64,000 bases of DNA from Candidatus Buchananbacteria bacterium (lineage in GTDB: Bacteria > Patescibacteriota > Patescibacteriia > Buchananbacterales > UBA6539). The notes below the pieces were generated by a model that saw nothing but the letters and a program-made list of their open reading frames with translations, did not search any database and was not told the DNA's origin. Positions 45,901-59,685 of the stretch are shown here, in pieces. Each line of letters opens with the position of its first letter. Within the stretch, counting starts at the first letter, position 1. The stretch lies in contig JABWCG010000002.1 of NCBI GenBank assembly GCA_013359225.1, positions 113,470-177,469 of the forward strand, read 5' to 3'. A program made the position numbers and the translations under genes.

Positions 45901-48225
45901 GGTGCCGTATTTGCGCCAAGAACTGATTCGTGTTCCGGCAATGTTTTAACGGAATATGGCTGTAACGGTGCCAACTTTACTTCATCAACCTATAATTGTG
46001 CCAGCGTTGCAAATACTATTTGTAGCAATGGTGCCTGTGTTTTACAGGCGGGAGTTAATAGCTGCAGCGACTCTGACGGCGGCGCTAACTATACGACGAT
46101 TGGCACGGTTTCCGGACAAGTTGATAGTGCAAACTATACTCATACTGATCAATGTGCCAGCGGCACCACTTTAACTGAATGGACTTGCAGTGGCACTCAG
46201 GCCGTTTCTTCGTCGCCAGCTTTTGACTGTACGACGCTTGGTGCCGGCTATACCTGTAGCAACGGCCGTTGTATTGCTCCGCCGCCAGTTTTTGTAAATT
46301 ACTATTGTAATACCGACGGTGACAGCGCGGTCAGCAGTTCGGTAACGATTAACTGCCAGCAGGGCACTGTTAATTGTCCGCCGGCCGGTCAGGGCTGTGT
46401 GACCGCACCAGGCACTGATTGTAATGATTCTAATTCTCAAATCTATCCAGGCGCCCCGGAGACTGCCTGCAATGGTGTTAATAATGACTGTGACGCTCAA
46501 ACCGATGAAGATTATGCTGTTATTTCCGGTCCAACGTGTGGTGTTGGCGCCTGCCAGACCACTGGCCAGCTCGTTTGCCAGAGCGGTACGATTACGGATA
46601 CTTGTACGCCCTTGCCGCCTTCAACTGAAGTGTGCGGTGACAGCGTCGACAACGATTGTAACGGAATCGTTGATAATGGTTGTATAAACGAGTGCACTCC
46701 GGGAGAACAAATTTCGTGCGGCGCTTTGGATCCAGTAAACTACAAGGGCGTTTGCGCTGCTCCAACAATTACCTGTAACGCTTTAGGCGCCTGGCCGCGA
46801 ACTGAATGTACGGCCCAAAAGAAAACCAGTGAAGTCGGTTTTTGTACGGATAATTTAGATAATGATTGTGATGGTTTTGCTGACTGTCAGGAAACCACTG
46901 ATTGTCCGGCGGGTAACGTTTGTTCCGGCAACTGTTTAGCTGGTGCGACGTGTAATGTTAGCGCCGGACCGACACAGTTTGACTGGATTTGTAATGCTCA
47001 GCCAGCGGCTTTTTGCGGCGGCACTGGCACGGCGTGCGGCTTGTGTGTTGAGGTTTCAGCTGGTAATTTCCAGTGCCAATCAAACGCTTCGGCCTGTAGT
47101 GGCGGTGCTGGGTATTGTGGTGTCTGTCAAGATCAGGGTGGCGGCGTGAATTTCAGCTGTGCACCAAACAATAATGCCTGTACGGCAGTTTGTACAACTT
47201 GTAGCAGCTCAACATTGTCGTGTGTTACTGTGGTGAATAATCAAGATACTGACGGCGCAAACCAGTGTCATGATACGGTTGGCTGCTCCGGTACGTCGTG
47301 CTCATGTAGCGTTGCCGGCGTTTGCCAAAACTGTGAAGATAATGATCATGACGGTTTATGTAATGAAATTGATGTTTGTCCGTATGATCCGGATAATGAC
47401 TTGGACAATGACGGTCTGTGTGCAGTTGGTTGTTTTAGTGGCCCGTCTCGTTTTGGCTCGCTAACCAACGGGTATATTTGTGATGCGGCCGCGTCCAATG
47501 TGTTACGCGACACTTGCCAGGGCGGCAGCAATCAGGACAGTGGCGGCTTGGGTGGCGTGCCGGACGACTGTGAGATCAATAGCTGCAAGGTGGTATTTGG
47601 CGCTCAAGACTACCTAAATATTTATATCAATGGTAAACTGGTTACTGGTAATTTATCTTTGCCGCAATATGTAAGCGGCAACCCGCCGGCGGATGTGATT
47701 GACAACGTGTTTGTCAGCCTTGATGATTATATTGCGTCCGGTGAAAACGTTATTGCAATTGAAGCTTACGTCGAAAAAGCCCGCGGTTCATATCCAGATT
47801 ACGCTCAGGCATATCGTCAGATTAGGGGAGCGTTTGCCAAGGTGACTGATCCGAGCTGTACTACCACCGGCTGTGGTTTATGTGATGCGTCCAGTTTAAG
47901 CGGCACGGCTTTAAGGACCGATCCGGTTTCCGGCAGTACGAATACTCCGGATATGCCGCTGAAATGTTTAGTGGTAAATGATACTACTAGTCCGGCGCCG
48001 ACAAACTGGAACAAGGTTGGTTTTAGCGAATCCGGCTGGTCTGATAGCGCAAACGGTTCAGCGCAAATTACTAATCCGTTCCAAGAAATTGAAGAGCGGC
48101 TCTGGAGTTCAGCCTACTATAGCAGCGTAACCAGTCCGCGCTACAACAGTCCGAAAGCGGTTTGGGCGGGCGGTAATTATACTTCAACTAGCAAGATTTA
48201 CTGTCGCTATACTTTCATTAAATAA
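30955..48225 (+). CDS. Giant (5756 aa) multidomain surface adhesin-like protein with a TrbC/VirB2-like N-terminal pilin/anchor module. It also has IPT/TIG-like Ig domains, Myxococcus-type cysteine-rich repeats (two clusters), a LamG/ConA-like lectin domain, thrombospondin type-3 Ca-binding repeats, a VWA domain with MIDAS, and many MopE-like 'CxDxxDNDCDGxxD' metal-binding motifs.
   Basis: A single 17,271-nt ORF has no stop codons. I recognise these motifs directly:
- CxxxCGDGxxxxxEECDDGNxxxGDGCSxxC repeats at about 35233-35700 and 36958-37560
- LamG-like 'LIAYYPLDG...KLYINGEEK...DDVKIYNRALSASEI' at about 39925-40610
- TSP3 'NPDQRDSGGIPGKGDVCD', 'DYDGDGVGYICD' and related repeats at about 41930-42850
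- VWA 'IVFVTDVSGSMAG...MIFMTDGDS' at about 43330-43690
- MopE-like motifs scattered across 44400-46900. Confidence 0.7.
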   Translation: MIPKKSKIKKLILPIVFGLVLGSFLVGSSVLALETGLGYGTFSGLGTQDLRVSVMNVVRAILGFLGVLAIVIIFYGGFIWMTAGGNADRIATAKKILTNAVIGLVIIFTSFAITSFVINQLINATGAGGGGITPGSCDEPSDVGAVNGCYVCTDFGSNYGWQVDCSINGCCPGPAQCGVVSITPSSPPNQPMNAVVRVRFNLPTITGVDEIQVIDTTTGNPVAVNRTVVGNVVEIRPTAFCAAPQDALNCFPANTTFNIAMNSGSIQCGGQNLVCGGFPDPCQGSFTTGDFVDIAGPTVELVDRQICQGTTNELRALVNDDYGIDNVQFFDTTYGVLISTDTNVSVPPEGFATGNWDTSTYAINEFVTVEARASDYDSHVATDQLQFTIRAGHCCNAVQDGDETGLNCGGNDCEACNPVIEWVSPLNGEQGNLITVHGRHFGDIPGTVTFLGAPNDGGADNQDGLNPASINPQCSNYWTDTEIVTVVPDAQDGPIMVRANNGTVDTTNELPGNTIADFDRNDVERPGICTVVPSSGEPGDAVVIHGLRLDAGSEVYFSSVLAGGTPVADGLMVTGATVPNLDPAQVGLRVKNQTQFSNPKTFSVGDANAPGQFQCSSDQLTCSPDQSKCTPDKFCNSSCNCEPRQTCDTNTGTPSCEPSQGLCDPGWFCYNPLPDGTHQPDPNKLACHCYQAQFCDDPTLAADVQNPACHPNDGACPDNYTCDPNSNCTCQPVSSIGDDSAYGWFFQSGIKPGSCSNEAGICDPNSALCNNGETCNPTTCNCEPTTQFACSSDPNVCSPDPDLCETGTFCNQTCQCETLVPCDADPNSPSCEPSACPQSYFCYSASVGDPGYDAKKLDCYCYPGILCDGDISTPVCDPDNDFCPTDYECNPNSCFCEAQVKVSDSSTYTWFFNTTSFGPRVVESCNRSNTCDIDSYSSPSPYNVSGTRAGGYTVSGARPDDGAIPVDSIITAMFTTEMVENSINETSVIVLRCNEASQPFNPTSCGAQQIIDDNGIDVHGCDYLGEAVTCFDFEPSALLTKNYWYQVTLNTSQIFGTNGVNLIGNSIDNNYRWVFKTRDSDELSRVACVYVEPTYQTAYNLGAEHDWNAYVSPEDFVCVLMNPDRSCTWDWTTSDGRATVIDQNGNEATTQALAETLPDPPVDVIASCTFSDGQKDGEGKLTIDLTSPYVIDKFPDCGTACLNARIGATFSRAMDAVSVTDAMTLYICYNNPNCEIGPANEVTSFSKPTAPAPDEAPNTFVGDMPCFDVNDDGKYDYCLLPDTYYRVVINNTAVSANDNKPLAGLNFDDPTLGGTGDLDSYSWIFKTQADAGLCLPDRIDVFPQDEVTPVDTTINYASRPRTAGDACDPEFGQRLNPYIWSWDYDTNLVSRQFDNPFCSGYEVANLLSTAPQNYCTERLPGSLRQSCGNNVIEIGESCDDGNLVNGDGCSNSCLHEGTVTPTCGDGKIGAGEECETPGSNYCGADCLWVGNTDYDLEVCGNGIVELSEMCEYPNTPGCGATCLLSGTTGAAICGNGVIDRGEECDEAERLNGDAPSSGDYNGDGISCGPTCLIENRGIGVCRSVATNKFDFTQNGGSCNTGYVAVPLNTATGNSNVGSVCGNRITELGEQCDLGGRCSDNNKPCTVSNLSNCANSATATCEPRDTYCFDPGNATDGQTCPTPGSACGTSGVCIANTCTVECLNAGYPSGFYSDNISPYQIAAATKDGETYIQSWIGGYSPVDTGPMGEGHLLVGNGGGNQFVIVERWPDCGSACLNADIGGRFSKSADPNTVNDLQAIDLGADRIFLYECGLDYSCAIDSLEPIEVSVDSYIEEYVNDAFRINLPLFYNLIDHDNNPSTPMVNALLPNTNYRVVVRNTVTSAEGLALTGLNFDDPYYDYQNPDTGSRLDSHSWVFRTQDTSEICSLDSVNVNPDDYYSESDASVRYSSEPRSEPDVCDPRYGQRLNPFYYDWNWDDEEVTGNPTPPPTFLNSAEFALPLRDGCGNALLQFGEDCDDGNLDNGDGCSSVCLNEGTTAPTCGNNKIDRGEECEPPSTGYCGANCLLIGNDNYTPIALGGYRLDDVCGNGVVEPGEECDEGTEPNGNEADGCTDYCRYTGSVPAALSICGDGQIGLGEECDDADFSNGSPVASGDGCSGTDPIAACTGLDRTACTAFPAANTCYWTGSTCKTRPCLVENRNVAICRSDRAGEFDFNQSPAACEDGYDPYNLTSVSGNNNFETPICGNRVIEEGEECDLGGRCSDNGRRCIPTDLSNCANPKTAVCELALGICTSDGTTCTVIGSACGSGGTCFSTGCSAECLNAGAIEDSLLQDTLIDPYQVVNTLSVPTVLAEVNEEIKAFATIQPNAVGVGLLHVVPGSQVDFAVIGHQPAIGATNQCLNVGIWALFSRPLNTETLSADSIRLCQGGDCSLVKNYSYRIVQGECGDDSFCHFPEHLSDVDSFGVCHNDFDCVGGQLIVRSLNTDTGFLDPNQDYEVRVDQNNLQDINGMTLAEANTCNGQTSCEWGFSSGTDFCECEYVSVSINPTTGGSETVKDLFTCAGDDCGSGTVSPFDDDAANGNPATEQNLAGNQHLYDTVCYDIHNNEGGRIPLLPTGLRFEWAVFPNDDLIYLTDSDATDFINDASFVTPNNKNGDSDVFITAYEYHCGDGPNFCDPQSAGACGDCGGDKAVNQTVRVTNFMCNNPWPGVEVFEDSDTNCDDANNCYDTNFTMLYCRDQGQEGVHDDLPPLYEDPLVLGNNPASPAIKDFIFTFASTGVNRTVNDRTPSNKTWTGGVGSNYQFTVAQTGNYAVKIDGYNYPTPGWGNSADLSSRVQPNPALFDSNVNYNGFNIDVYLRTGTCSASPAQKSGTAVLLPYDETNPQTGSVSLGQLTAGETYCMEFRWTNDWCKCNPECLASGGTLDDQCDANFHFLGWQVISENTSNDAIGIRVLENPLHLSPTTWYSSGLCGGVAEFDSLCFSDADCLVPNDNGLIAYYPLDGVEADYSGNELDGLKNTNAPYLPGKFGQAANFSSADEWIEVASNSKLQVSGELTVSAWVNLNEGLSGANPDERGLGIIASEYDWNSGGGTETGWTLGDDWGCSNAAGSPCPPADQIYFSVFGSGGSVVRAYANNFAQNYLDQWVLVTGVFKPGQYVKLYINGEEKSSTATNISSIVYSADTPLRIGHRADNDYQGNWIGRIDDVKIYNRALSASEIAGLMKPNVLECVFNVPARGNPQQTITDNYQSVAEGRSVYVGATNRRANALWSDIYLMSYSQGASNNTIEIFNRLLDPEQLTGRWSFNANVSNHRVCDIYGYFEDTTNICSGIGTSNFDYCSTLGTPAACNNDAVTYGCYWDSQFEVCLGKMCEAIYCENDFECPNLSCNANKEKIVRDAERYGDLRDLQLALNRYGQTKGGYPTLGGGTYVPNTTFSQWPSWQQTLGADLGGRLYVDPINRFVGCSDHYCDDNESGTIDSGERTFCLVGDVDACSSRPYLCLAIDPDQEVTCWDEITKQFSCPAQMFSYAYNAINGGGDYALYTSFEYDQIGSWRSLPGYFCDTNNNGSIQIDQETIRCTVNADCTSGACLASAEADLYELPLTSTDVECRELNFTLDAATISGGVSPAECAARRCYGGTNDPENDECNSGEVTECPDSGPGTYCTGDADYDGICDVDVGTDNCNPFLDCKANPRDCYNPDQRDSGGIPGKGDVCDATCGADTDSDGVCDSSDTCRNVYNPANASCLDGHSNRTNGQCDYDLDNIGDACDPCTDLDRDGFWDKNTPANTCLADNCAVGLTVSNDRFGYCSGDLSIQCSPGAAGNTICAGAGAGSCVQQTGSLATYNPYQEDYDGDGVGYICDFCIDFDGDSHGDYPFYTSSMFVTTLTPNQQQHFSSCTSGTAWPGNPGNINDIDNCPGGPFGAECTDEFGIEVSCYNPSGTAWEDLNGTSHTGQKDFNLDGIGDICDEFRVGLVNCGDGITDPGGGEACDCGKYALTSDPSSPIVCSTINDQPCNPGYDSNVGNGLNNCNWCYRCQEVKNEEAGYCGDDIVQAPQENCERGNAGCDNSCQNFEPAEYCDANGYDSEVIHFNSPTGQTSHNFLNTTPVYFYIPECSITNSTEVSFDIDITGSLPDTGIVFVTDVSGSMAGTRITDAKAAIINTINDFAATAFAGKIHIGLVSYSTDKSLDSPLVKVDNPTNVQNLIAKVNAYDAVGGTEPDKAVQEATTMLGSFTGNRIMIFMTDGDSHYTYGNYGPGEPVCYGSLDHGSNCHVVPVCEHTCAYTCNGSACQECTATNIWGACTTWTNRSGTCCPDCPGSVAYEFTCSAASVCTGCIASSSSFTNDSDIAKGAPYNIVIYGAAFTGGTQTANPTEVNLTSSNCLGGSCSSNFCNSGYCFGEGGLTFEDIYGAIYDQIVEELGYSFSVLVDGVMTTPIDLPYQSPTGGSYPNQTIDLPSNICTSGTVNPSYPDFGQHTLQLVGLPSGIQASFSGAAVNYCTTCDEDNDGVMDASCGGADCNPANANIPVAELIAAGNCTDNIDNDCDGTKDGADIGCVDPGGGGTIQEGIGNCADGIDNDVDSRTDCADPECVGKPGPNGVTCCQVGTDCSTYGTGQCNACSNNVCVAVTAINGSNCEGTCSFCSNGTCVNRETGDGRECPAGWACTGPAATAYCSPNVSAENCSQAGDEDGDGLADCADVDDCDGHTAPDGGICCTDSFDCGGTCQTCSPTAKRCVPYTGLNGGLCSGACTYCSNGSCVARTNGDGLECPVGTVCSGMSCVDPGASNDCTVPSSKVCPFQQGVCSGSRENCVAPGVWPGCDYQTYVNHAASTGKTYEAGFESLCTDGQDNDCDGQTDSADSDCGAVCNDNGTCDGAENCSNCPDECACLPGQLCCGAATYSCEVPDCNANIDCNDSNASTIDVCQGAATCNATCIHTPITACSNGDGYCPAGCTASNDTDCAPVAACQDTDGGSTVYTTQGTVSDGVGGAVFAPRTDSCSGNVLTEYGCNGANFTSSTYNCASVANTICSNGACVLQAGVNSCSDSDGGANYTTIGTVSGQVDSANYTHTDQCASGTTLTEWTCSGTQAVSSSPAFDCTTLGAGYTCSNGRCIAPPPVFVNYYCNTDGDSAVSSSVTINCQQGTVNCPPAGQGCVTAPGTDCNDSNSQIYPGAPETACNGVNNDCDAQTDEDYAVISGPTCGVGACQTTGQLVCQSGTITDTCTPLPPSTEVCGDSVDNDCNGIVDNGCINECTPGEQISCGALDPVNYKGVCAAPTITCNALGAWPRTECTAQKKTSEVGFCTDNLDNDCDGFADCQETTDCPAGNVCSGNCLAGATCNVSAGPTQFDWICNAQPAAFCGGTGTACGLCVEVSAGNFQCQSNASACSGGAGYCGVCQDQGGGVNFSCAPNNNACTAVCTTCSSSTLSCVTVVNNQDTDGANQCHDTVGCSGTSCSCSVAGVCQNCEDNDHDGLCNEIDVCPYDPDNDLDNDGLCAVGCFSGPSRFGSLTNGYICDAAASNVLRDTCQGGSNQDSGGLGGVPDDCEINSCKVVFGAQDYLNIYINGKLVTGNLSLPQYVSGNPPADVIDNVFVSLDDYIASGENVIAIEAYVEKARGSYPDYAQAYRQIRGAFAKVTDPSCTTTGCGLCDASSLSGTALRTDPVSGSTNTPDMPLKCLVVNDTTSPAPTNWNKVGFSESGWSDSANGSAQITNPFQEIEERLWSSAYYSSVTSPRYNSPKAVWAGGNYTSTSKIYCRYTFIK
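34531..37922 (+). repeat. Diverged internal tandem duplication inside the giant gene: two ~1.6 kb units (34531-36066 and 36247-37922)
   Basis: Protein segments align between the units:
- FPDCGTACLNARIGATFSRAMD / WPDCGSACLNADIGGRFSKSAD
- LPDTYYRVVINNTAVSAN...SYSWIFKTQ / LPNTNYRVVVRNTVTSAE...SHSWVFRTQ
- CDPEFGQRLNPYIW / CDPRYGQRLNPFYY
- both end in ...TVECLNAGY / ...SAECLNAGA. Confidence 0.7.
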
Positions 48226-53086: not shown

Positions 53087-55465
53087 ATGATATTTGGTGT
53101 TGGAGAATCAAAACTAAAGCTTACCAAGAATGCTTTAAAGGTCTTGGAAAGCCGATATTTATTGAAAGATAATGACGGCAACGTAATTGAAAAGCCGATT
53201 GAAATGTTTAGGCGCGTTGCCGGTTTTATTGTAAAAGCGGAAGATAAGTATGGCTTGACCCAGGAAGAAAAAGATGACCTGGCTAAGGCTTTCCTGGAAG
53301 TGATGGTTGATTTTGAATTTTTGCCAAACAGTCCAACCTTTACCGGCGCTGGTACGCCTTTAGGGCAGTTGTCAGCCTGCTTTGTGCTGCCGGTGGGAGA
53401 CTCTATGGAAGAAATTTTTGAAGCGATCAAAAATACCGCTTTAATCCACAAATCCGGTGGCGGAACTGGTTTTTCATTTTCTCGTATTCGGCCGGCCAAA
53501 GATCCGGTGAAGTCCACTAGCGGTTTGGCATCGGGTCCAATTTCTTTTATGACCGTTTTTGATGCTGCGACCGATACGGTGAAACAGGGTGGCACTCGTC
53601 GTGGAGCTAATATGGGCATTCTGCGGGTGGATCATCCGGATATTATGGAATTTATTGTCGCTAAGGAAGATAACAATCGACTAAACAATTTTAATATTTC
53701 AGTGGCAATCACCGACAAGTTTATGGATGCGCTTGATAAGGGTGAAGAATATGATTTGCTCAACCCCCGTGACGGCAGGGCAATCGGTAAGTTAAACGCC
53801 AAAGAAGTGTGGGACAAAATTATTGATCACGCCTGGAAAAACGGGGACCCTGGTGTTATTTTTATTGATAAAATCAACAAACATAATCCTACGCCTCATG
53901 TTGGTAAAATTGAAAGCACCAATCCGTGTGGAGAACAGCCGCTGTTACCCTATGAATCTTGTAATTTAGGTTCAATTAACTTGGCCAAATTCGTTAAAGA
54001 AGGTGAAATTGATTATCAGCGCTTAGCTTTTGTTGTACAAACAGCAGTCAGGTTTTTAGATGATGTGATTGATATGAATAAGTATCCAATCCCGCAGATT
54101 TCTCAAATGACCAGAGCTAATCGTAAGATTGGTTTAGGGGTAATGGGTTGGGCTGACATGTTGGTTGATTTAGGTATTTCCTATAATTCAAACGAGGCGA
54201 TTGATTTGGCTGAAAAAGTAATGAAATTTATCAAAAACACAGCCGATCAGGCGTCGGTTGTTTTAGCTAAAGAAAAAGGAGTATTTCCTAATTTTGAAGG
54301 CAGTATTTATGACACGCCAGATAGCACCGGAATTAGAAATGCCACCAGAACCACTATCGCGCCAACCGGCACTATCAGTATTATTGCTAACTGTTCTTCC
54401 GGGATTGAGCCGCTATTTGCTTTGGCATATGTTAGAAAATCGCGCATCGGTAAGAAAGGCGATGACTGGGTTGAGTTAGTAGAGGTTAATCCTTATTTTG
54501 AAGCAGTTGCTAAAGAACGGGGATTTTATTCCAAAGAACTAATGGAAAAAATTTCTCAAGTTGGCTCGATCCAGCACCTTGATGAAGTGCCAGACGATGT
54601 GAAACGAGTATTTGTCACCTCTCACGACATTACGCCGGAATGGCATATTCGAATGCAGACTGCTTTTCAAAAATATGTTGATAATGCCGTTTCTAAAACC
54701 ATCAACTTTCCTAACGCCGCTACTCGTGATGATGTCGCCAAAGCGTATTTATTGGCGTACGAGAATGATTGCAAAGGAGTAACTATTTATCGGGATGGCA
54801 GTCGAGATGTTCAAGTTTTAACAACCGGTCAATCGCACAAAAAGGAAGAGGCTCCAAAGGAAACCACTACTCCTGCTGCGCCGTTTTATAAGCGCAAGCG
54901 CCCGATGATGATGCGCGGCACAACTTATAAAGTAAAAACGTCGTATGGTGATTTGTATATCACCATTAATGACGACGAACAGGGTAATCCCTTCGAAGTG
55001 TTTGCTACTATTGGTAAGGCTGGCGGATTTTTTTCAGCCAAGTCAGAAGCAATTTGTCGTTTAGTTTCCTTGGCGTTACGCGCCGGCATTCCGGCCCAGG
55101 AAGTAGTCAGTCAAATTAAAGGTATTCGTGGTCCGATGCCGTCTTGGGGTGAAGGGGGAATGATTTTGTCGCTTCCTGACGCTATTGCTCAGATTATTGA
55201 AAAACATCTCAGTCAAAATCAGCAGCGGCTGGAATTAGAATTTCATAATGGCAAAGTGACCAAAGAACAGTTATCTAAAACCCCGGCCTCCTATGATCCG
55301 GCTTCATCTTTGCCGGTAGATAGCGCCAAGCCTTCCAATGGCAACGGTAATCGGGAAATTGCCGATTTTGGTACCGCGCCAGAATGTCCTGATTGTGGCA
55401 ATATTTTGGAAATCGCCGAAGGTTGTTTGAAGTGTCGATCCTGTGGCTTTTCCCGCTGCGGGTAA
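53087..55465 (+). CDS. nrdJ: Adenosylcobalamin-dependent (class II) ribonucleotide reductase NrdJ with a C-terminal Zn ribbon
   Basis: The class II RNR core includes the active-site 'TNPCGEQPLLPYESCNLGSINL'. The C-terminal CPDCGNILEIAEGCLKCRSCGFSRCG segment is a Zn ribbon. Confidence 0.9.
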   Translation: MIFGVGESKLKLTKNALKVLESRYLLKDNDGNVIEKPIEMFRRVAGFIVKAEDKYGLTQEEKDDLAKAFLEVMVDFEFLPNSPTFTGAGTPLGQLSACFVLPVGDSMEEIFEAIKNTALIHKSGGGTGFSFSRIRPAKDPVKSTSGLASGPISFMTVFDAATDTVKQGGTRRGANMGILRVDHPDIMEFIVAKEDNNRLNNFNISVAITDKFMDALDKGEEYDLLNPRDGRAIGKLNAKEVWDKIIDHAWKNGDPGVIFIDKINKHNPTPHVGKIESTNPCGEQPLLPYESCNLGSINLAKFVKEGEIDYQRLAFVVQTAVRFLDDVIDMNKYPIPQISQMTRANRKIGLGVMGWADMLVDLGISYNSNEAIDLAEKVMKFIKNTADQASVVLAKEKGVFPNFEGSIYDTPDSTGIRNATRTTIAPTGTISIIANCSSGIEPLFALAYVRKSRIGKKGDDWVELVEVNPYFEAVAKERGFYSKELMEKISQVGSIQHLDEVPDDVKRVFVTSHDITPEWHIRMQTAFQKYVDNAVSKTINFPNAATRDDVAKAYLLAYENDCKGVTIYRDGSRDVQVLTTGQSHKKEEAPKETTTPAAPFYKRKRPMMMRGTTYKVKTSYGDLYITINDDEQGNPFEVFATIGKAGGFFSAKSEAICRLVSLALRAGIPAQEVVSQIKGIRGPMPSWGEGGMILSLPDAIAQIIEKHLSQNQQRLELEFHNGKVTKEQLSKTPASYDPASSLPVDSAKPSNGNGNREIADFGTAPECPDCGNILEIAEGCLKCRSCGFSRCG

Positions 55466-55473
55466 AACTAAAC

Positions 55474-56010
55474 ATGTTGAAGGGTGCTATGAAAAGTGAT
55501 TTAGGTAAAGTTCATGTGTATACCGGCGACGGTAAGGGCAAAACTACTGCATCGCTTGGTCTTGCTTTACGCGCCATCGGTGCTGGCTATCAGGTTTATA
55601 TTGTTCAATTTTTAAAAGGCCAAGACTATAGCGAATTAACCAGTCTAAAACCGCTTAAAGAAATTACCTTAAAGCGTTTCGGCCAAAAAAGTTTTATTAT
55701 CAAAAAGGCTAAGCCGACTGACATCGCTTTGGCAAAGCAGGGGTTGGCATGGGCGCGCCGGGTGATAAAAAGTAAAAAATTTGACGTGGTAATTCTGGAT
55801 GAGATATTTTTGGCGGTTTTTTTCAAAATGTTGAAAGTGTCCGATCTAGTTTCGTTGATTAAAATCAAACCAAAAAATGTTGAGTTGATTTTGACCGGCC
55901 GCCGCGCACCGGCGGCGGTAGTAGCTTTAGCTGATTATGTTACTGAAATGAAAGAGGTAAAACACCCTTATAAAAAAGGGGTAGTGGCCCGACGAGGCAT
56001 TGAAAACTAG
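55474..56010 (+). CDS. cobO: Cob(I)alamin/corrinoid adenosyltransferase (CobO/CobA/BtuR family)
   Basis: It has the P-loop 'VYTGDGKGKTTASLGLALRAIGAGYQVYIVQFLKG', which is typical of the CobA/BtuR family. The start is at the ATG at 55474, just after the nrdJ stop. The six-frame ORF begins at an upstream TTG inside nrdJ. Confidence 0.8.
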   Translation: MLKGAMKSDLGKVHVYTGDGKGKTTASLGLALRAIGAGYQVYIVQFLKGQDYSELTSLKPLKEITLKRFGQKSFIIKKAKPTDIALAKQGLAWARRVIKSKKFDVVILDEIFLAVFFKMLKVSDLVSLIKIKPKNVELILTGRRAPAAVVALADYVTEMKEVKHPYKKGVVARRGIEN

Positions 56011-56039
56011 GTTATCCACCGTCGTGATTCTTGACAGGC

Positions 56040-56300
56040 TCACTGGTAGTTCTAAAATTTAATTACTTAAAAATTTGGTTGCATCTTAATTTTCCGAAGT
56101 AAGGTTACATTCCTTCGCTGACCCGCAACTGTGAAGTCTTTTTTCACCCCCTAGGTGGAAAAAGAATAAGCCAGGTCGAGAAAATAAGAGCTTAATTAAC
56201 CCACGTAACTCTTCGAGGATATGAGAGGCATCGTGTCGCTGGTTTTAAGCCAGCTCTTAAAATTGCTCTAACTACGAGGAATTTTTTTATTTAATAATTC
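56040..56300 (+). promoter_or_regulatory. Cobalamin (B12) riboswitch in the 5' leader of the 56314 operon
   Basis: It contains the highly conserved core 'GCTGACCCGCAACTGTGAAG' (consensus gCUGcCCCCGCAACUGUAA). Preceding it are GGTTGCA...AAGGTTACATTCC (the GGUG.AA.UCC region). After it come a B12-box-like 'AAGCCAGGTCGAG' and a 3' hairpin GCTGGTTTTAAGCCAGC, which may be the expression platform. Confidence 0.6.
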
Positions 56301-56313
56301 ATAACTAACAGAT

Positions 56314-58110
56314 ATGATTAAAAAAAACGCATTACCTATTTTTCGAATAATCGTTGTTTTTTCACTGCTGCTGCAGCCGGTGTTTGTTTCGGCCAGTTTG
56401 TCGGGCGCTGTTAGTTATTTGGAAAGTCAGGTTGATGATCCTTGGATTACAATGGCACTCGTGGCTTCTGGCCAGACGAATATCCCAACCGGTCATTTAA
56501 AACAAGTTTCCGGAACAAGTGCCACTGATTATGCTAAAACGATTTTAGCCTTAGCGGCCCTGGGCAAAGACCCCTCGACATTTGGCAACGTTGATTATGT
56601 CGCTGCGTTGGAAGATACATTTGACGGCACACAAATTGGCGACGTGAATTTGTTAAATGATGACATGTGGGGCATATTAGCATTGGCAAGCGTTGGCAAA
56701 AAAACTTCAGCGGCAGTTACTGCCACTAAAACCTACTTATTGTCAAAACAAAACAGCGACGGCGGTTGGAGTTATTCAGCGGGAGCTGGTTCTGATACTA
56801 ACGATACCGCTGCTGCAGTCATCGCGTTAATTGAAGCAGGAGTTGGAGCAAATAATGAAGTAATTACTAAGGCGTTAGCGTATATCAAATCAGCGCAAAA
56901 CAGCGACGGCGGCGTTGGTTATCAACCGGGCAACGGCTCAGACGCCGGCTCAGACGCTTGGACGATTTCAGCCTTAATTAAAGCGGGAGTCAACCCGAGT
57001 GGCTGGACGAAGAACAATATCAGTCCGATTCAACACCTTGAATCCTTGCAAGACGAAGATGGCGGTTATTGGTGGGTTACCGAAGGTACCTCAGAATGGA
57101 ACAATAAAGCTATGACTGCATATGCGGTTATCGCTTTAAGCGGTGCCACCTATCCGGTTGGGTATTATCAATCAGGAGCTGCTAACGATGGTGAATTTCA
57201 TTTGAGAATTGAAGGTGCTAGTAATACTATTTGTGATACGTTTGTCGCCGGCGTTACAGCGCTTGATTTAGTTAAAAATGCCGCGGCGGAATGTGGATAT
57301 TCATATACGATTACTCAGGAGTCATTTGGTCCGTATTTGCGAGAAATCGCTGGCGAGACAGCTTCCGGATTGAATGGGTGGTTATACTTTGTAAACAGTG
57401 CTTCACCAATCGTTGGCGCGGCTGATTACCATTTAGCGTCTGGTGATGAAGTGTTGTGGTATTTTGGTGAGTGGGGAGTTATGCCGACGCGCTTGAATGT
57501 GAGTGAAACTCAAGTTGATCCCGGCCAGGCAATTGATGTAGTGGCTGAATATTTTGATGGCAGTTCTTGGCGTCCGGTTTCCGGTGCAACTATTAAGGTG
57601 AATGATGAAGTCCGGCAAGCGGGTACTAACGGTACGCTTGCCCTACAAATTTATGAAAATGGTATTTATCGGATTTATGCCGACCATGCTGGGTATGTCA
57701 GAAGTAATACAGTGACAGTGACGGTTGGTGACACAGTTAATCAGAATGTTGGTTTACAGGTTGAGATTAATCAGGGCACGGCTGGCGTTATCGGCGGTGA
57801 GGCAATTGCTTTAGTGGTTGATGCTTCTGATATTGATTTTGGCCCATTGGCTCCGGGACACGGCAGTGAGGCTGAGGTGGTCATATCAAATCAGGGAACA
57901 GTTAATCTTGGTGTTGGCACCCAGGTCAGCGGTGACGTGGTTTTCACCAAGGGTTTAAAGATTAACGACGCCGCTCATGCCGAGTATGCCGACACCCTGG
58001 TTGCCGGCCAGAGTAAATCAACAAAAGTTGTTTTAAATGTACCTAGTGATTATCTGGCTTCTGGCGTCAAAACGGGAGAGCTAACTTTTTGGGCAACTGT
58101 TCAACCGTAA
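56314..58110 (+). CDS. Secreted transcobalamin/intrinsic-factor-like putative cobalamin-binding protein. It has a signal peptide, a prenyltransferase/terpene-cyclase-like alpha/alpha-toroid, a DUF4430 (transcobalamin-like C-terminal) domain and two beta-sandwich domains.
   Basis: The repeated 'SDGGWSYSAGAGSDTNDTAAAVIALIEAG', 'SDGGVGYQPGNGSDAGSDAWTISALIKAG' and 'EDGGYWWVTEGTSEWNNKAMTAYAVIALSG' match alpha-toroid repeats. The DUF4430-like segment is '...GPYLREIAGETASGLNGWLYFVNSASPIVGAADYHLASGDEVLWYF'. The gene lies directly downstream of the Cbl riboswitch. Confidence 0.5.
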   Translation: MIKKNALPIFRIIVVFSLLLQPVFVSASLSGAVSYLESQVDDPWITMALVASGQTNIPTGHLKQVSGTSATDYAKTILALAALGKDPSTFGNVDYVAALEDTFDGTQIGDVNLLNDDMWGILALASVGKKTSAAVTATKTYLLSKQNSDGGWSYSAGAGSDTNDTAAAVIALIEAGVGANNEVITKALAYIKSAQNSDGGVGYQPGNGSDAGSDAWTISALIKAGVNPSGWTKNNISPIQHLESLQDEDGGYWWVTEGTSEWNNKAMTAYAVIALSGATYPVGYYQSGAANDGEFHLRIEGASNTICDTFVAGVTALDLVKNAAAECGYSYTITQESFGPYLREIAGETASGLNGWLYFVNSASPIVGAADYHLASGDEVLWYFGEWGVMPTRLNVSETQVDPGQAIDVVAEYFDGSSWRPVSGATIKVNDEVRQAGTNGTLALQIYENGIYRIYADHAGYVRSNTVTVTVGDTVNQNVGLQVEINQGTAGVIGGEAIALVVDASDIDFGPLAPGHGSEAEVVISNQGTVNLGVGTQVSGDVVFTKGLKINDAAHAEYADTLVAGQSKSTKVVLNVPSDYLASGVKTGELTFWATVQP

Positions 58111-58113
58111 ATT

Positions 58114-58593
58114 ATGTTTAGATCAATTGGAGCATTACTTTTATTGATACACTTCCTGGTTGGGCCGGCGGCTGCGGCGGTTGGCGTGGCGGTTAAACCG
58201 GTGCAGCTTACTTTGCAGGGAACAACGATGCGGGCCGCGGCGGGAGAATTTTTGGTGGCGAATGTTGATCAAGTTCCGGCATTGTATCAGGTGTCAGCGG
58301 ATCAATTTGGTGATATAATTTCATTTGATTCGGCTGATTTTCAGCTGCAGCCTCAGGAAACCAGAATTGTTAAGTTTAAAGCTTGGTTTGTCAGTCCAGG
58401 AACTTTTCAAACCAATATTTCAGTTGCCGCTAAACCGCTTGGGAACAGCGGTCTGGCCGCCGCTTCAGGCGTTAAAGTTCCGCTTACCATTACGGTGGGT
58501 GGAATTTCACTCATGGCGTTGATTGGCTTAATCATGGTTTTTTGTTTAGTCTTGGCAATATTGCTGATGATAAGATTAAAAAAGAAAAAATAA
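58114..58593 (+). CDS. Small surface protein with an N-terminal signal peptide, a beta-rich domain and a C-terminal TM anchor ending in KKKK
   Basis: MFRSIGALLLLIHFLVGPAAAAV...GISLMALIGLIMVFCLVLAILLMIRLKKKK. It is translationally coupled to the upstream gene, with a 3-nt gap. Confidence 0.4.
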   Translation: MFRSIGALLLLIHFLVGPAAAAVGVAVKPVQLTLQGTTMRAAAGEFLVANVDQVPALYQVSADQFGDIISFDSADFQLQPQETRIVKFKAWFVSPGTFQTNISVAAKPLGNSGLAAASGVKVPLTITVGGISLMALIGLIMVFCLVLAILLMIRLKKKK

Positions 58594-58624: not shown

Positions 58625-59056
58625 ATGAAGTTAATCGTTCGGGCCGTCATCATTGTCGCGATTTTTATTGCGGGATTTTTCGTCGGCAATCAATATCAGA
58701 CAATTTTTGACAGCAGTGTTAAACAAACTGAAAACCAATCAACAGCGATTAATGTCATGATTGATAGCGGCAAAGAGATTAAACTGTATGAAAGAGTTTC
58801 TATTGCCGAAAATGAAACGGTATTTGAATTATTGAAAAAGATTGCCGATGAAAACAATCTGGAGTTAGGCTACAAGGATTTTGGCGGTGAGCTGGGCGTC
58901 ATGATAGAATCAATCGGCGGTGTTAAGAATGACGTTAGCAGTAACGGGTTTTGGCAGTATTGGGTTAACAATTCTTATGCTCAGGTTGGGCCAAGCAGCT
59001 ATCGGATACACGCCGGTGATTCAATAACCTGGAAATATGTCACTAATCAATTTTAA
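58625..59056 (+). CDS. Membrane-anchored standalone DUF4430 (transcobalamin-like beta-domain) protein
   Basis: It has an N-terminal TM helix. The segment '...LELGYKDFGGELGVMIESIGGVKNDVSSNGFWQYWVNNSYAQVGPSSYRIHAGDSITWKYV' parallels the DUF4430 segment of the upstream gene. Confidence 0.45.
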   Translation: MKLIVRAVIIVAIFIAGFFVGNQYQTIFDSSVKQTENQSTAINVMIDSGKEIKLYERVSIAENETVFELLKKIADENNLELGYKDFGGELGVMIESIGGVKNDVSSNGFWQYWVNNSYAQVGPSSYRIHAGDSITWKYVTNQF

Positions 59057-59069
59057 TAACTCATATACT

Positions 59070-59609
59070 ATGAATACCAAGTTTAAATTAGCCACTGCAG
59101 CCCTATTAATTGTTTTAGGAGTAACCTGTCGTTTGTTGCCACATTTGTGGAACTTTGTTCCCGTAACTGCCATTGCTTTGTTCGCCGGATTTTATTTTGG
59201 TCGGCGGTATGCTTTGGTGTTGCCGTTAGTGATCGCTTTCGTCAGCGATTTATTTCTTGGGTTTTATCAGTGGCAATTAATGCTGGCAGTGTATCTGAGT
59301 TTTATGGTGGTCGGTATGATTGGTTTTATGGTTAGAAAATACAAGAACGTTGAAACAATTATAGCCGCCAGCATCAGTTCGTCGGTTTTGTTTTATTTAG
59401 TAACTAACTGGGCAGTCTGGCGATTTTCGCCGTGGTACGAAAAGTCTGTTAACGGATTACTTAGCTCTTATGTTTTGGCCGTGCCGTTTTTTAGGAATGC
59501 CCTGCTGGGTGATTTATTTTATACGGCGGTATTGTTTGGCTCGTATGAATTAGTGCATTTGATGGTTAGCCGCCATCGTCGTCTGTCAGCATTGGTTGAA
59601 ACAAAATAA
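59070..59609 (+). CDS. Small polytopic membrane protein; candidate ECF S-component-like (CbrT/BtuM-like) corrinoid transporter
   Basis: It is about 180 aa with 5-6 TM helices (LIVLGVTCRLLPHLWNFVPVTAIALFAGFYFG...). It is the last gene of the riboswitch-controlled unit. The function is assigned by context only. Confidence 0.3.
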   Translation: MNTKFKLATAALLIVLGVTCRLLPHLWNFVPVTAIALFAGFYFGRRYALVLPLVIAFVSDLFLGFYQWQLMLAVYLSFMVVGMIGFMVRKYKNVETIIAASISSSVLFYLVTNWAVWRFSPWYEKSVNGLLSSYVLAVPFFRNALLGDLFYTAVLFGSYELVHLMVSRHRRLSALVETK

Positions 59610-59611
59610 AT

Positions 59612-59652
59612 CTAAAACCCCGCCCCCGATGTTTCAAGAAGGCGGGGTTTTT
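59612..59652 (+). terminator. Rho-independent terminator ending the B12 operon
   Basis: AAAACCCCGCCCCCGATGTTTCAAGAAGGCGGGGTTTTTATTTTTGG. Confidence 0.6.
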
Positions 59653-59685
59653 ATTTTTGGCTAAATATTGTATAATATATTTCGT

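What the first reader, a model, noticed from the sequence alone, without database searches (positions are those of the whole stretch)
58625..59609. Standalone DUF4430 protein paired with a small polytopic membrane protein as a candidate minimal corrinoid transporter
Two genes close the riboswitch operon. The first is a membrane-anchored protein whose only domain resembles the transcobalamin-like beta domain (…GFWQYWVNNSYAQVGPSSYRIHAGDSITWKYV). The second is a ~180-aa protein with 5-6 TM helices, with no ECF A/T or ABC genes in the window. This resembles solitary S-component-like B12 transporters of the BtuM/CbrT type, but a DUF4430 partner for such a transporter is not an established pairing.
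Basis: inference. Interest (0 to 1): 0.6.

Follow-up and report, generated by a model that had tools for sequence, protein, structure and literature searches.

The report
Vitamin B12 uptake operon, CbrS/CbrT-like
The two genes are the last part of a vitamin-B12-sensing operon in a tiny-genome (Patescibacteria) bacterium: a surface-anchored transcobalamin-like B12 catcher next to a small membrane transporter distantly related to the known B12 transporter CbrT. This gene pairing is already known from lactobacilli, but the transporter family (DUF6580) has no assigned function.

Summary
58625-59056 encodes a 143-aa N-terminally anchored DUF4430 protein whose model matches the beta domain of transcobalamin, intrinsic factor and haptocorrin. 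59070-59609 (ORF from 59037) encodes a 6-helix membrane protein. Both close a four-gene unit running from a promoter-like site through an AdoCbl riboswitch to a terminator hairpin.

- The membrane protein belongs to Pfam DUF6580 (E 3e-48) and has the ECF S-component fold.
- As a profile, its only solved sequence relative is CbrT, the cobalamin S-component of Lactobacillus delbrueckii (E 9e-5).
- CbrT lies in the published nrdJ-cbrS-cbrT-pduO cluster. I show that cbrS is a DUF4430 (lipo)protein, so the pairing is established.
- It is not BtuM: there is no invariant cysteine and no sequence match.

The new part is a functional assignment for DUF6580.
- In 80 related loci, 68 have a B12-linked neighbour (DUF4430 in 55; also NrdJ, adenosyltransferases, TonB receptor).
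- Cobalamin riboswitches sit directly upstream in two phyla.
- One natural DUF6580-DUF4430 fusion exists.

Whether the transporter works alone ("minimal") or needs an ECF module encoded elsewhere could not be tested. The operon also encodes two more surface proteins, so it is not minimal.

The parts
53087..55465 (+). Class II (adenosylcobalamin-dependent type) ribonucleotide reductase NrdJ. It is the likely consumer of the imported cofactor and lies upstream of the operon.
   Evidence: PF02867 E 2.4e-146, PF00317 and TSCPD. NrdJ lies upstream of DUF6580 in 22 of 80 related loci.
55474..56010 (+). CobA/BtuR-type ATP:cob(I)alamin adenosyltransferase, which converts imported corrinoid to the adenosyl form.
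   Evidence: PF02572 E 1e-60. NF004637 and TIGR00708 both score above their cutoffs. The start at the internal Met is my reading of the ORF. An adenosyltransferase (CobA or PduO) is present in 28 of 80 related loci.
56031..56058 (+). Sigma-70-like promoter match just upstream of the riboswitch.
   Evidence: TTGACA-16-TAAAAT, 11 of 12 matches. This is a consensus match only.
56067..56236 (+). AdoCbl (cobalamin) riboswitch aptamer.
   Evidence: RF01482, 42.1 bits (gathering score 50), E 2.7e-5, full model 1-149. Its conserved core aligns with threshold-passing riboswitches at the same place in L003, L005, L010, L013, L015 and L057.
56314..58110 (+). 598-aa secreted protein with transcobalamin-like architecture: signal peptide, alpha/alpha toroid, DUF4430 beta domain and C-terminal Ig-like domains.
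   Evidence: PF14478 E 2.7e-10 (residues 313-385) plus Prenyltrans and SQHop_cyclase matches. Against the PDB: squalene-hopene cyclase E 4e-13 (residues 138-252) and the human transcobalamin beta domain 5no0 E 0.002 (residues 310-380). Orthologues occur in 8 loci, with more distant large DUF4430/toroid proteins in others.
58114..58593 (+). 159-aa protein with a signal peptide, an Ig-like domain and a C-terminal TM helix ending in KKKK. It is a possible membrane tether for the 598-aa protein.
   Evidence: Sequence. Only weak Ig-like Pfam matches. Orthologues are found only in the 8 loci that also carry the 598-aa orthologue. The tether role is inference.
58625..59056 (+). CbrS-like protein: 143 aa, N-terminal membrane anchor plus a single DUF4430 / transcobalamin-beta-like domain facing outward.
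   Evidence: PF14478 E 3.9e-17. The model has pLDDT about 90 for residues 39-140. The top 19 Foldseek hits are intrinsic factor, haptocorrin, transcobalamin and 3u7z; the isolated TC beta domain 5no0 gives TM 0.75 and rmsd 2.7 A. The domain is shared with Lactobacillus CbrS-position proteins. 56 of 57 small DUF4430 proteins in related loci carry an N-terminal hydrophobic segment or lipobox.
59070..59609 (+). DUF6580 membrane protein (179 aa; the ORF can also be read from 59037, 190 aa). It is an S-component-type, CbrT-related putative corrinoid transporter.
   Evidence: PF20221 E 3.3e-48; PF12822 E 2.3e-5, below its cutoff. Model pLDDT 96.1. Foldseek gives BtuM, RibU, ThiT and PanT on top. The profile hits only CbrT 6fnp_A in the PDB, E 9.4e-5. 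hhalign against the CbrT family gives probability 80.8%, E 1.3e-5.
59614..59658 (+). Intrinsic-terminator-like hairpin plus U-tract that closes the operon.
   Evidence: Sequence. The RNA fold is -18.6 kcal/mol, z = -2.4, followed by UUUUUAUUUUU. The pattern scan missed it, probably because the loop exceeds that scan's 3-8 nt limit.

Best explanation
This is the distal half of a B12-repressed corrinoid-salvage operon: promoter, AdoCbl riboswitch, a 598-aa transcobalamin-like alpha+beta surface protein, a 159-aa anchored Ig-like protein, the 143-aa anchored DUF4430 protein, the DUF6580 membrane protein, and a terminator. It sits directly behind the B12-dependent ribonucleotide reductase NrdJ and the adenosyltransferase CobA.

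Proposed mechanism:
1. When intracellular AdoCbl is low, the riboswitch lets the operon be expressed (inferred).
2. The extracytoplasmic transcobalamin-like proteins capture scarce corrinoid at the cell surface (inferred from fold and family).
3. The membrane-anchored beta-domain protein, the counterpart of Lactobacillus CbrS, keeps the corrinoid at the membrane and passes it to DUF6580 (inferred).
4. DUF6580, a divergent relative of the cobalamin S-component CbrT, carries it across the membrane by the toppling motion typical of S-components (inferred).
5. CobA adenosylates it for NrdJ (established roles of these families).

Shown here:
- the domain and fold identities;
- the remote homology to CbrT;
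- the operon anatomy;
- the conserved synteny with B12 genes;
- riboswitch control in two phyla.

Not shown:
- ligand binding or transport;
- the energy source.

I put about 50% on ECF-independent operation (as for BtuM or solitary BioY) and about 50% on use of a shared EcfAA'T module encoded elsewhere in the genome.
For: Family and fold of the membrane protein:
- DUF6580 E 3.3e-48, with a weak ECF_trnsprt match.
- Confident model whose best structural matches are BtuM-hydroxycobalamin and the S-components RibU, ThiT and PanT (probability 0.97-1.0, TM 0.52-0.62).
- The DUF6580 profile finds exactly one PDB sequence, CbrT of ECF-CbrT (6fnp_A, E 9.4e-5).
- Profile-profile comparison with a CbrT family alignment gives probability 80.8% and E 1.3e-5 over TM helices 1-3.
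- Invariant residues lie mostly in or next to loops L1, L3 and L5. From the positively charged cytoplasmic loops I infer that these loops face outward, where S-components bind substrate.

DUF4430 protein:
- PF14478, and the top 19 fold hits are all B12 carriers or 3u7z.

Same cluster as a validated system:
- The order nrdJ, DUF4430 (one or two genes), cbrT, pduO is seen in Lactobacillus (named nrdJ-cbrS-cbrT-pduO in PMC5997447).
- The identical order nrdJ, DUF4430, DUF6580, pduO is seen in L034 and L048.

Synteny in 80 loci:
- 68 have a B12-linked neighbour.
- DUF4430 is present in 55 and directly adjacent in 44.
- NrdJ is present in 22, an adenosyltransferase in 28 and a TonB receptor in 8.

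Riboswitches at Rfam gathering score:
- Directly upstream of the DUF4430-DUF6580 unit in 12 of 26 Patescibacteria-type loci scanned.
- Upstream of DUF6580 or its operon in 5 of 9 Bacteroidota/Ignavibacteria loci, at 75-89 bits. There the neighbours are a TonB receptor plus a DUF5074 propeller, or a TonB receptor plus a BtuF-like binding protein.

Fusion:
- P0189 has DUF6580, then a TM helix, then DUF4430.

Literature:
- The isolated transcobalamin beta domain has been crystallised bound to cyanocobalamin (PDB 5np4, listed; paper PMC5599065 seen only by title).
- Bacterial transcobalamin-like proteins were predicted to be B12 scavengers (PMC1796856).
Against: - No binding or transport data exist for any DUF6580 or bacterial DUF4430 protein in the searchable literature.
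- The homology to CbrT is remote: it covers only about 66-90 residues, the Pfam ECF_trnsprt score of 24.9 is below the cutoff of 30.7, and 6fnp was not among the 50 Foldseek matches shown.
- The window riboswitch is below Rfam's gathering score.
- 12 of 80 loci have no B12-linked neighbour (glycosyltransferase or housekeeping contexts), and three Bacteroidales loci scanned have no riboswitch. Not every family member need carry B12.
- Some DUF6580 genes next to NrdJ/PduO lack DUF4430 (L028, L049, L053, L056), so the DUF4430 partner is accessory rather than obligatory.
- A related transcobalamin-like/ECF operon in L. sakei was assigned to heme uptake (bioRxiv 10.1101/864751).
Confidence: 0.75

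Rival explanations
1. Conventional group II ECF transporter. DUF6580 is simply a divergent CbrT that docks onto a shared EcfA-EcfA'-EcfT module encoded elsewhere in the genome. The system is therefore ATP-driven and not 'minimal'.
For: - The closest sequence relative is CbrT, which needs the ECF module for transport (PMC5997447).
- In Lactobacillus, cbrS-cbrT also lies far from the ECF module, in an nrdJ/pduO cluster with no ABC genes nearby. Absence of ABC genes in the window therefore says nothing.
- Some DUF6580 members also hit PF12822.
Against: - No ECF or ABC gene lies next to DUF6580 in any of 80 loci (only 6 ABC-motif ORFs in about 1 Mb, none adjacent apart from an ABC-2 exporter pair in L071).
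- No other S-component or ECF part is present in the 64-kb window.
- DUF6580 also occurs under riboswitch control beside TonB receptors in Bacteroidota and Ignavibacteria, with a BtuF-like protein in L058. To my recollection (not tested) these lineages rarely carry ECF modules, which mirrors the BtuM situation.
Confidence: 0.4
2. One reading: a genuinely minimal, solitary two-gene transporter in which a DUF4430 binder plus an S-component-like protein form a previously unrecognised pairing.
For: - There are no ECF or ABC genes in the window.
- BtuM is the top structural hit.
- The Bacteroidota contexts resemble BtuM's co-localisation with BtuB (PMC6072759).
- The fusion protein P0189 suggests the two parts can act as one unit.
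Against: - The pairing is not new: cbrS = DUF4430 next to cbrT (PMC5997447), and transcobalamin-like proteins with ECF genes are described in PMC1796856 and bioRxiv 10.1101/864751.
- The operon has four genes, including a second, larger transcobalamin-like protein.
- The defining features of BtuM are absent.
- Solitary operation is untested.
Confidence: 0.3
3. The system imports a different tetrapyrrole or corrinoid precursor (heme, cobinamide only, or another soluble ligand) rather than cobalamin.
For: - The L. sakei operon lsa1836-1840, with an ECF S-component and transcobalamin alpha-like and beta-like proteins, was linked to heme uptake (bioRxiv 10.1101/864751).
- The SLBB superfamily binds diverse soluble ligands (PMC1796856).
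- 12 of 80 DUF6580 loci lack B12 neighbours.
Against: - Cobalamin-class riboswitches lie directly upstream in many loci of two phyla.
- The association with NrdJ and with CobA/PduO adenosyltransferases is tight.
- Cobinamide as a co-substrate remains possible, because CbrT also transports it (PMC5997447).
Confidence: 0.07
4. DUF6580 is not a transporter. It could be a membrane dock or receptor for the surface transcobalamin-like proteins, or a corrinoid-processing membrane protein, with translocation done by something else.
For: - No transport data exist.
- BtuM itself has a chemical (decyanation) activity (PMC6072759).
- L058 pairs DUF6580 with a BtuF-like binding protein, which normally serves BtuCD.
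Against: - The S-component fold and the homology to CbrT point to substrate binding and translocation.
- No other candidate importer is encoded in these operons.
- DUF6580 occurs without DUF4430 next to NrdJ/PduO, so it is not merely a dock for that protein.
Confidence: 0.08

Closest known systems
ECF-CbrT and the nrdJ-cbrS-cbrT-pduO cluster of Lactobacillus (Rodionov et al. 2009 prediction; Santos et al. 2018, PMC5997447; PDB 6FNP)
   Same: - A small 6-helix S-component-type membrane protein sits immediately downstream of one or two about 130-aa extracytoplasmic DUF4430 proteins, beside NrdJ and a cobalamin adenosyltransferase.
- CbrT is the only PDB sequence detected by the DUF6580 profile.
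- Shared motifs lie in TM helices 1-3.
   Different: - It belongs to a separate Pfam family: DUF6580, not PF12822, whose score is below cutoff. The similarity is remote.
- The adenosyltransferase in the window is CobA-type rather than PduO-type.
- An AdoCbl riboswitch is present here, but none was found in the Lactobacillus loci scanned.
- There are two extra surface proteins, one of them a full alpha+beta transcobalamin-like protein.
- The DUF4430 protein carries an uncleaved-looking TM anchor instead of a lipobox or signal peptide.
[quoted passage not shown]
BtuM (Thiobacillus denitrificans; Rempel et al. 2018, PMC6072759; PDB 6FFV/8OVV)
   Same: - S-component fold, and top Foldseek hit.
- No ECF genes nearby.
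- Family members in Bacteroidota and Ignavibacteria lie beside TonB-dependent (BtuB-like) receptors under B12 riboswitches, as BtuM does beside BtuB.
   Different: - There is no detectable sequence similarity (no hit at E<=10).
- The invariant cysteine that ligates cobalt in BtuM has no counterpart; no cysteine is conserved in DUF6580.
- BtuM has no DUF4430 partner described.
Bacterial transcobalamin-like SLBB proteins (Burroughs et al. 2007, PMC1796856) and the L. sakei Lsa1836-1840 ECF operon (bioRxiv 10.1101/864751)
   Same: - Extracytoplasmic beta-grasp (DUF4430) proteins.
- Fusion to an alpha/alpha toroid.
- Paralogous pairs in one operon.
- Occurrence in organisms lacking B12 synthesis.
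- Association with ECF-type membrane components.
   Different: - Those operons include CbiO/CbiQ-type (EcfA/EcfT) genes, and this one does not.
- The L. sakei system was assigned to heme, whereas here the riboswitch and neighbours point to corrinoids.
Mammalian transcobalamin, intrinsic factor and haptocorrin
   Same: - The beta domain fold (TM 0.75 to the isolated human TC beta domain).
- The 598-aa protein has the same order, alpha/alpha toroid then beta domain.
   Different: - Here the small protein is beta-domain-only and membrane anchored.
- The toroid resembles squalene cyclase and prenyltransferase repeats more than PF01122.
- Delivery would be to a membrane transporter rather than to an endocytic receptor.

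Membership tests
Pfam PF20221 (DUF6580) | HMM score at or above the gathering score (27 bits) over the full domain. | tested here: met
   164.4 bits, E 3.3e-48, profile positions 4-156 of 162. All 120 listed homologues carry PF20221.
ECF transporter S-component (superfamily) | Six-helix S-component fold. | tested here: met
   Model pLDDT 96.1. The Foldseek top five are BtuM, RibU, ThiT (two chains) and PanT, with probability 0.97-1.0 and TM 0.52-0.62, although E-values are only 0.05-0.7.
ECF transporter S-component (superfamily) | Match to PF12822 ECF_trnsprt at the gathering score (30.7 bits). | tested here: not met
   24.9 bits, E 2.3e-5. A few family members do carry PF12822.
ECF transporter S-component (superfamily) | Works with an EcfT/EcfA/EcfA' module encoded in the same genome. 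| not testable with these tools
   None is present in the 64-kb window or next to DUF6580 in 80 loci. The rest of the genome could not be read; look-ups at the window ends returned only 1.5-2.3-kb contigs.
CbrT (cobalamin S-component) | Sequence homology to characterised CbrT. | tested here: inconclusive
   The profile hits 6fnp_A at E 9.4e-5 (residues 10-103). hhalign gives probability 80.8% and E 1.3e-5 over 66 columns. This is significant but partial and remote, and the two belong to different Pfam families.
CbrT (cobalamin S-component) | Gene context nrdJ-cbrS-cbrT-pduO, that is, a DUF4430 gene upstream with B12 enzyme neighbours. | tested here: met
   The window order is nrdJ, cobA, riboswitch, two surface-protein genes, DUF4430, DUF6580. 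L034 and L048 have nrdJ, DUF4430, DUF6580, pduO.
CbrT (cobalamin S-component) | Binds and transports cobalamin and cobinamide. | not testable with these tools
   This needs an experiment.
BtuM | Invariant cysteine (Cys80 in loop 3) as the axial cobalt ligand (PMC6072759). | tested here: not met
   No cysteine is among the invariant or nearly invariant columns of 41 DUF6580 sequences. Loop 3 instead carries D60, G64 and F65.
BtuM | Sequence similarity to BtuM. | tested here: not met
   The DUF6580 profile finds no BtuM chain in the PDB at E<=10.
DUF4430 / transcobalamin-like SLBB clade (CbrS-like) | PF14478 match above the cutoff and the beta-grasp fold of the transcobalamin beta domain. | tested here: met
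   62.9 bits against a cutoff of 23.8. The top 19 Foldseek hits are intrinsic factor, haptocorrin, transcobalamin and 3u7z, E 1e-5 to 2e-4.
DUF4430 / transcobalamin-like SLBB clade (CbrS-like) | Extracytoplasmic location (signal peptide, lipobox or anchor). | tested here: met
   An N-terminal hydrophobic helix is preceded by K2 and R6. 56 of 57 small DUF4430 proteins in related loci carry such a segment. The topology itself is inferred, not measured.
DUF4430 / transcobalamin-like SLBB clade (CbrS-like) | Binds corrinoid. | not testable with these tools
   Only the human beta domain has been shown to bind (PDB 5np4, listed).
Cobalamin riboswitch (Rfam CL00101) | Covariance-model score at or above the gathering score. 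| tested here: not met
   RF01482 scores 42.1 bits against 50 (E 2.7e-5). The element nevertheless spans the full model and shares the conserved core with orthologous elements that pass, so I treat it as a real but divergent member.

The most novel reading that the evidence does not exclude
DUF6580 is a widespread, ECF-independent corrinoid importer: 4,716 clusters at 50% identity, mainly Patescibacteria but also Bacteroidota and Ignavibacteria. It is fed by extracytoplasmic binders of different kinds: membrane-anchored transcobalamin beta domains and secreted alpha+beta transcobalamin-like proteins in Patescibacteria, and a BtuF-like protein or BtuB/propeller systems in diderms. On this reading the window shows a bacterial 'transcobalamin relay' handing B12 to a solitary S-component-like carrier. 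That would be the main route by which ultra-small symbionts with B12-dependent ribonucleotide reductase obtain their cofactor.
Probability: 0.35. Interest if true: 0.65.

Novelty: new variant of a known kind. Interest (0 to 1): 0.45.

Why it matters
Patescibacteria (the Candidate Phyla Radiation) have minimal genomes. To my knowledge they generally lack B12 biosynthesis. Many depend on an adenosylcobalamin-type ribonucleotide reductase to make DNA precursors, so B12 acquisition would be essential for them, and I found no paper describing their importer.

The evidence here assigns a probable function (corrinoid uptake) to the Pfam family DUF6580, a 'domain of unknown function' with thousands of members. 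It links that family to the experimentally characterised CbrT. It also shows that the poorly studied CbrS/DUF4430 partner is conserved across very distant phyla and is even fused to the transporter in one protein.

This gives concrete, cheap experiments on how transcobalamin-like proteins work in bacteria and on whether S-component-type carriers can work without an ECF module.

It is not a new principle. The pairing and the predicted scavenging role were already in the literature.

Tried and rejected
- Rodionov et al. 2009 (PMC2612444) is not held. I therefore tested the identity of cbrS directly in Lactobacillus loci.
- The look-up of P0149 found nothing.
- I tried to extend beyond the window with edge proteins to search for an ECF module. 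Only 1.5-2.3-kb contigs came back.
- An idea that the invariant GxxxG in the DUF4430 anchor helix marks a specific helix-helix contact with DUF6580 was dropped. The motif is present in only 12 of 57 small DUF4430 proteins.
- The AxxxA helix-1 motif used by group II S-components to dock on EcfT was inspected by eye only. The corresponding positions vary in DUF6580, so no conclusion was drawn.
- P0166 (372 aa, with an N-terminal extension before DUF6580) has no second Pfam domain and looks like a merged gene call. It is not used as evidence.
- Single-sequence phmmer of both proteins against the PDB gave nothing significant. NCBIfam has no model for either protein.
- Literature searches for DUF6580, and for Patescibacteria combined with cobalamin or ECF transporters, returned nothing.
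Full report
**1. What is there**

The window comes from a Candidatus Buchananbacteria (Patescibacteria) genome, because the membrane protein is 100% identical to P0001 from that organism. The region reads as follows on the + strand:
- ftsZ;
- class II ribonucleotide reductase NrdJ (53087-55465);
- CobA/BtuR adenosyltransferase (about 55474-56010);
- a promoter-like site (56031-56058, 11 of 12);
- an AdoCbl riboswitch match (56067-56236; 42.1 bits, E 2.7e-5, below the gathering score of 50);
- a 598-aa protein (56314-58110);
- a 159-aa protein (58114-58593);
- the 143-aa DUF4430 protein (58625-59056);
- the membrane protein (ORF 59037-59609; start at 59070 inferred from the 179-aa database protein P0001);
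- a hairpin plus U-tract (59614-59658; -18.6 kcal/mol).

The riboswitch core aligns with elements at the same position in orthologous loci that pass Rfam's threshold.

**2. The DUF4430 protein**

PF14478 is its only domain (E 3.9e-17). The model is confident for residues 39-140. Its 19 best PDB matches are all intrinsic factor, haptocorrin or transcobalamin, plus the Ruminococcus DUF4430 structure 3u7z. Against the isolated human transcobalamin beta domain it gives TM 0.75 and rmsd 2.7 A.

The N-terminus is a hydrophobic helix preceded by Lys and Arg, which places the domain outside the cell (inference). The same arrangement, either an anchor, a signal peptide or a lipobox, is found in 56 of 57 small DUF4430 proteins of related loci.

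**3. The membrane protein**

It is a clear member of Pfam DUF6580 (E 3.3e-48), with a sub-threshold match to the ECF S-component family PF12822. The AlphaFold model has pLDDT 96.1. Foldseek puts BtuM-hydroxycobalamin first, followed by RibU, ThiT and PanT, which is the S-component fold.

A profile of 41 family members finds a single PDB sequence: chain A of 6FNP, which is CbrT, the cobalamin S-component of L. delbrueckii (E 9.4e-5). Profile-profile comparison with a CbrT family alignment gives probability 80.8% and E 1.3e-5 over helices 1-3. CbrT itself belongs to PF12822.

BtuM is not detected by sequence. BtuM's defining invariant cysteine (PMC6072759) has no counterpart, because no cysteine is conserved in DUF6580.

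The conserved residues of DUF6580 lie mostly in or next to loops L1, L3 and L5. By the positive-inside rule I infer that these loops are extracellular, which is where S-components bind substrate.

**4. Is the pairing conserved, and is it new?**

A genome scan found 582 relatives, and 80 loci were kept. The results were:
- A DUF4430 gene lies on the same strand in 55 loci and directly next to DUF6580 in 44, of which 42 are upstream.
- NrdJ is present in 22 loci.
- CobA or PduO adenosyltransferases are present in 28 (c10 = PF01923).
- At least one B12-linked neighbour is present in 68.

The pairing is not new. Santos et al. (PMC5997447) state that cbrT lies in an nrdJ-cbrS-cbrT-pduO cluster. I retrieved CbrT homologues and read their loci. 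The order there is nrdJ, then one or two PF14478 DUF4430 genes of about 128 aa, then cbrT (PF12822), then pduO. One of the DUF4430 proteins has a lipobox and the other a signal peptide. Loci L034 and L048 have the same order with DUF6580 in place of cbrT.

Burroughs et al. 2007 (PMC1796856) had already described several of these features:
- bacterial transcobalamin-like proteins;
- their fusion to alpha/alpha toroids;
- paralogue pairs in one operon;
- association with CbiO/CbiQ genes;
- a predicted B12-scavenging role.

A related L. sakei operon has also been studied (bioRxiv 10.1101/864751).

**5. Independent support for a B12 role of DUF6580**

At Rfam gathering score, cobalamin-class riboswitches lie immediately upstream of the DUF4430-DUF6580 unit in 12 of 26 Patescibacteria-type loci scanned.

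In Bacteroidota and Ignavibacteria, where DUF4430 is absent, riboswitches of 75-89 bits lie upstream of DUF6580 or its operon in 5 of 9 loci. In three of them (L055, L065, L066) the riboswitch directly precedes DUF6580. A second riboswitch, a TonB-dependent receptor and a DUF5074/NHL propeller then follow.

In L058 the order is riboswitch, TonB receptor, a PF01902 protein, a BtuF-like periplasmic binding protein, then DUF6580.

A profile search of 1.84 billion representatives finds 4,716 clusters at E<=1e-10. One of them, P0189, is a fusion of DUF6580, one TM helix and DUF4430, with the topology expected if the two proteins work together.

**6. The rest of the operon**

The 598-aa protein combines four parts:
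- a signal peptide;
- a squalene-cyclase/prenyltransferase-like alpha/alpha toroid;
- a DUF4430 domain that matches the human transcobalamin beta domain;
- Ig-like domains.

This is the transcobalamin domain order. The 159-aa protein has a signal peptide, an Ig-like domain and a C-terminal anchor, and it occurs only together with the 598-aa orthologue. The system is therefore a four-gene surface-capture plus import unit, not a two-gene minimal one.

**7. What remains open**

No ABC ATPase signature, EcfT-like protein or other S-component is present in the window, and none is adjacent to DUF6580 in the 80 loci. Group II S-components are normally unlinked to their ECF module, as in Lactobacillus, and the rest of the genome could not be read. 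Solitary and ECF-dependent operation are therefore about equally likely.

Caveats:
- Twelve loci have no B12 neighbours.
- Some DUF6580 genes next to NrdJ/PduO lack DUF4430, so the partner is accessory.
- 6FNP was not among the 50 Foldseek matches shown.
- No experimental data exist for DUF6580 in the searchable literature.

**8. Verdict**

A BtuM type is wrong, the pairing is not novel, and 'minimal' is unproven.

The value of the finding is a well-supported functional assignment for DUF6580 as a CbrT-like corrinoid transporter family of Patescibacteria and some Bacteroidota. It is a new variant of a known kind and of moderate interest.

Noticed in passing
window 30955-48225 (+): A single ORF of 5,756 aa with about 3 predicted TM segments, preceded by a 958-aa ORF (28052-30928). 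It looks like a giant surface protein typical of Patescibacteria.
   Followed up: no
L058 6213-6905 and L035 5763-6431: A PF01902 (Diphthami_syn_2-like, ATP-pyrophosphatase type) protein of about 225 aa sits inside B12 uptake operons of two unrelated lineages. In the Ignavibacteria locus it lies between the TonB receptor and the BtuF-like protein. In the Patescibacteria-type locus it lies between DUF4430 and DUF6580. I know of no described role in B12 uptake.
   Followed up: partly
L034 9133-9210 and L048 9085-9222: A second cobalamin-class riboswitch lies just downstream of pduO, in front of the next gene. In L048 that gene is a roughly 465-aa protein of cluster c56, also present in L028 and L060. 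In L034 it is an unclustered 361-aa ORF. Neither was identified.
   Followed up: no
L058 6965-7963: A BtuF-like periplasmic binding protein (PF01497) is encoded directly upstream of DUF6580 with no BtuC/BtuD nearby. This suggests a binding protein feeding an S-component-like carrier, an unusual combination.
   Followed up: partly
L033 5776-6951 and L042 1916-3091: A conserved 391-aa protein with no Pfam match lies between CobA and the riboswitch/DUF4430-DUF6580 unit.
   Followed up: no
L027, L033, L042, L067 (just downstream of DUF6580): A second, short (about 107 aa) ORF that clusters with DUF6580 follows the full-length gene. It may be a partial duplicate or a split gene.
   Followed up: no
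L081 4829-4999: In the L. helveticus locus the DUF4430 (cbrS-position) gene is only 56 aa, with about 280 nt of apparently non-coding DNA before it. It is probably a decayed copy.
   Followed up: partly
window 58535-58590: A weak chance-level Rfam match (mir-737, E 0.22) lies in the A/T-rich 3' end of the 159-aa gene. I regard it as noise.
   Followed up: no
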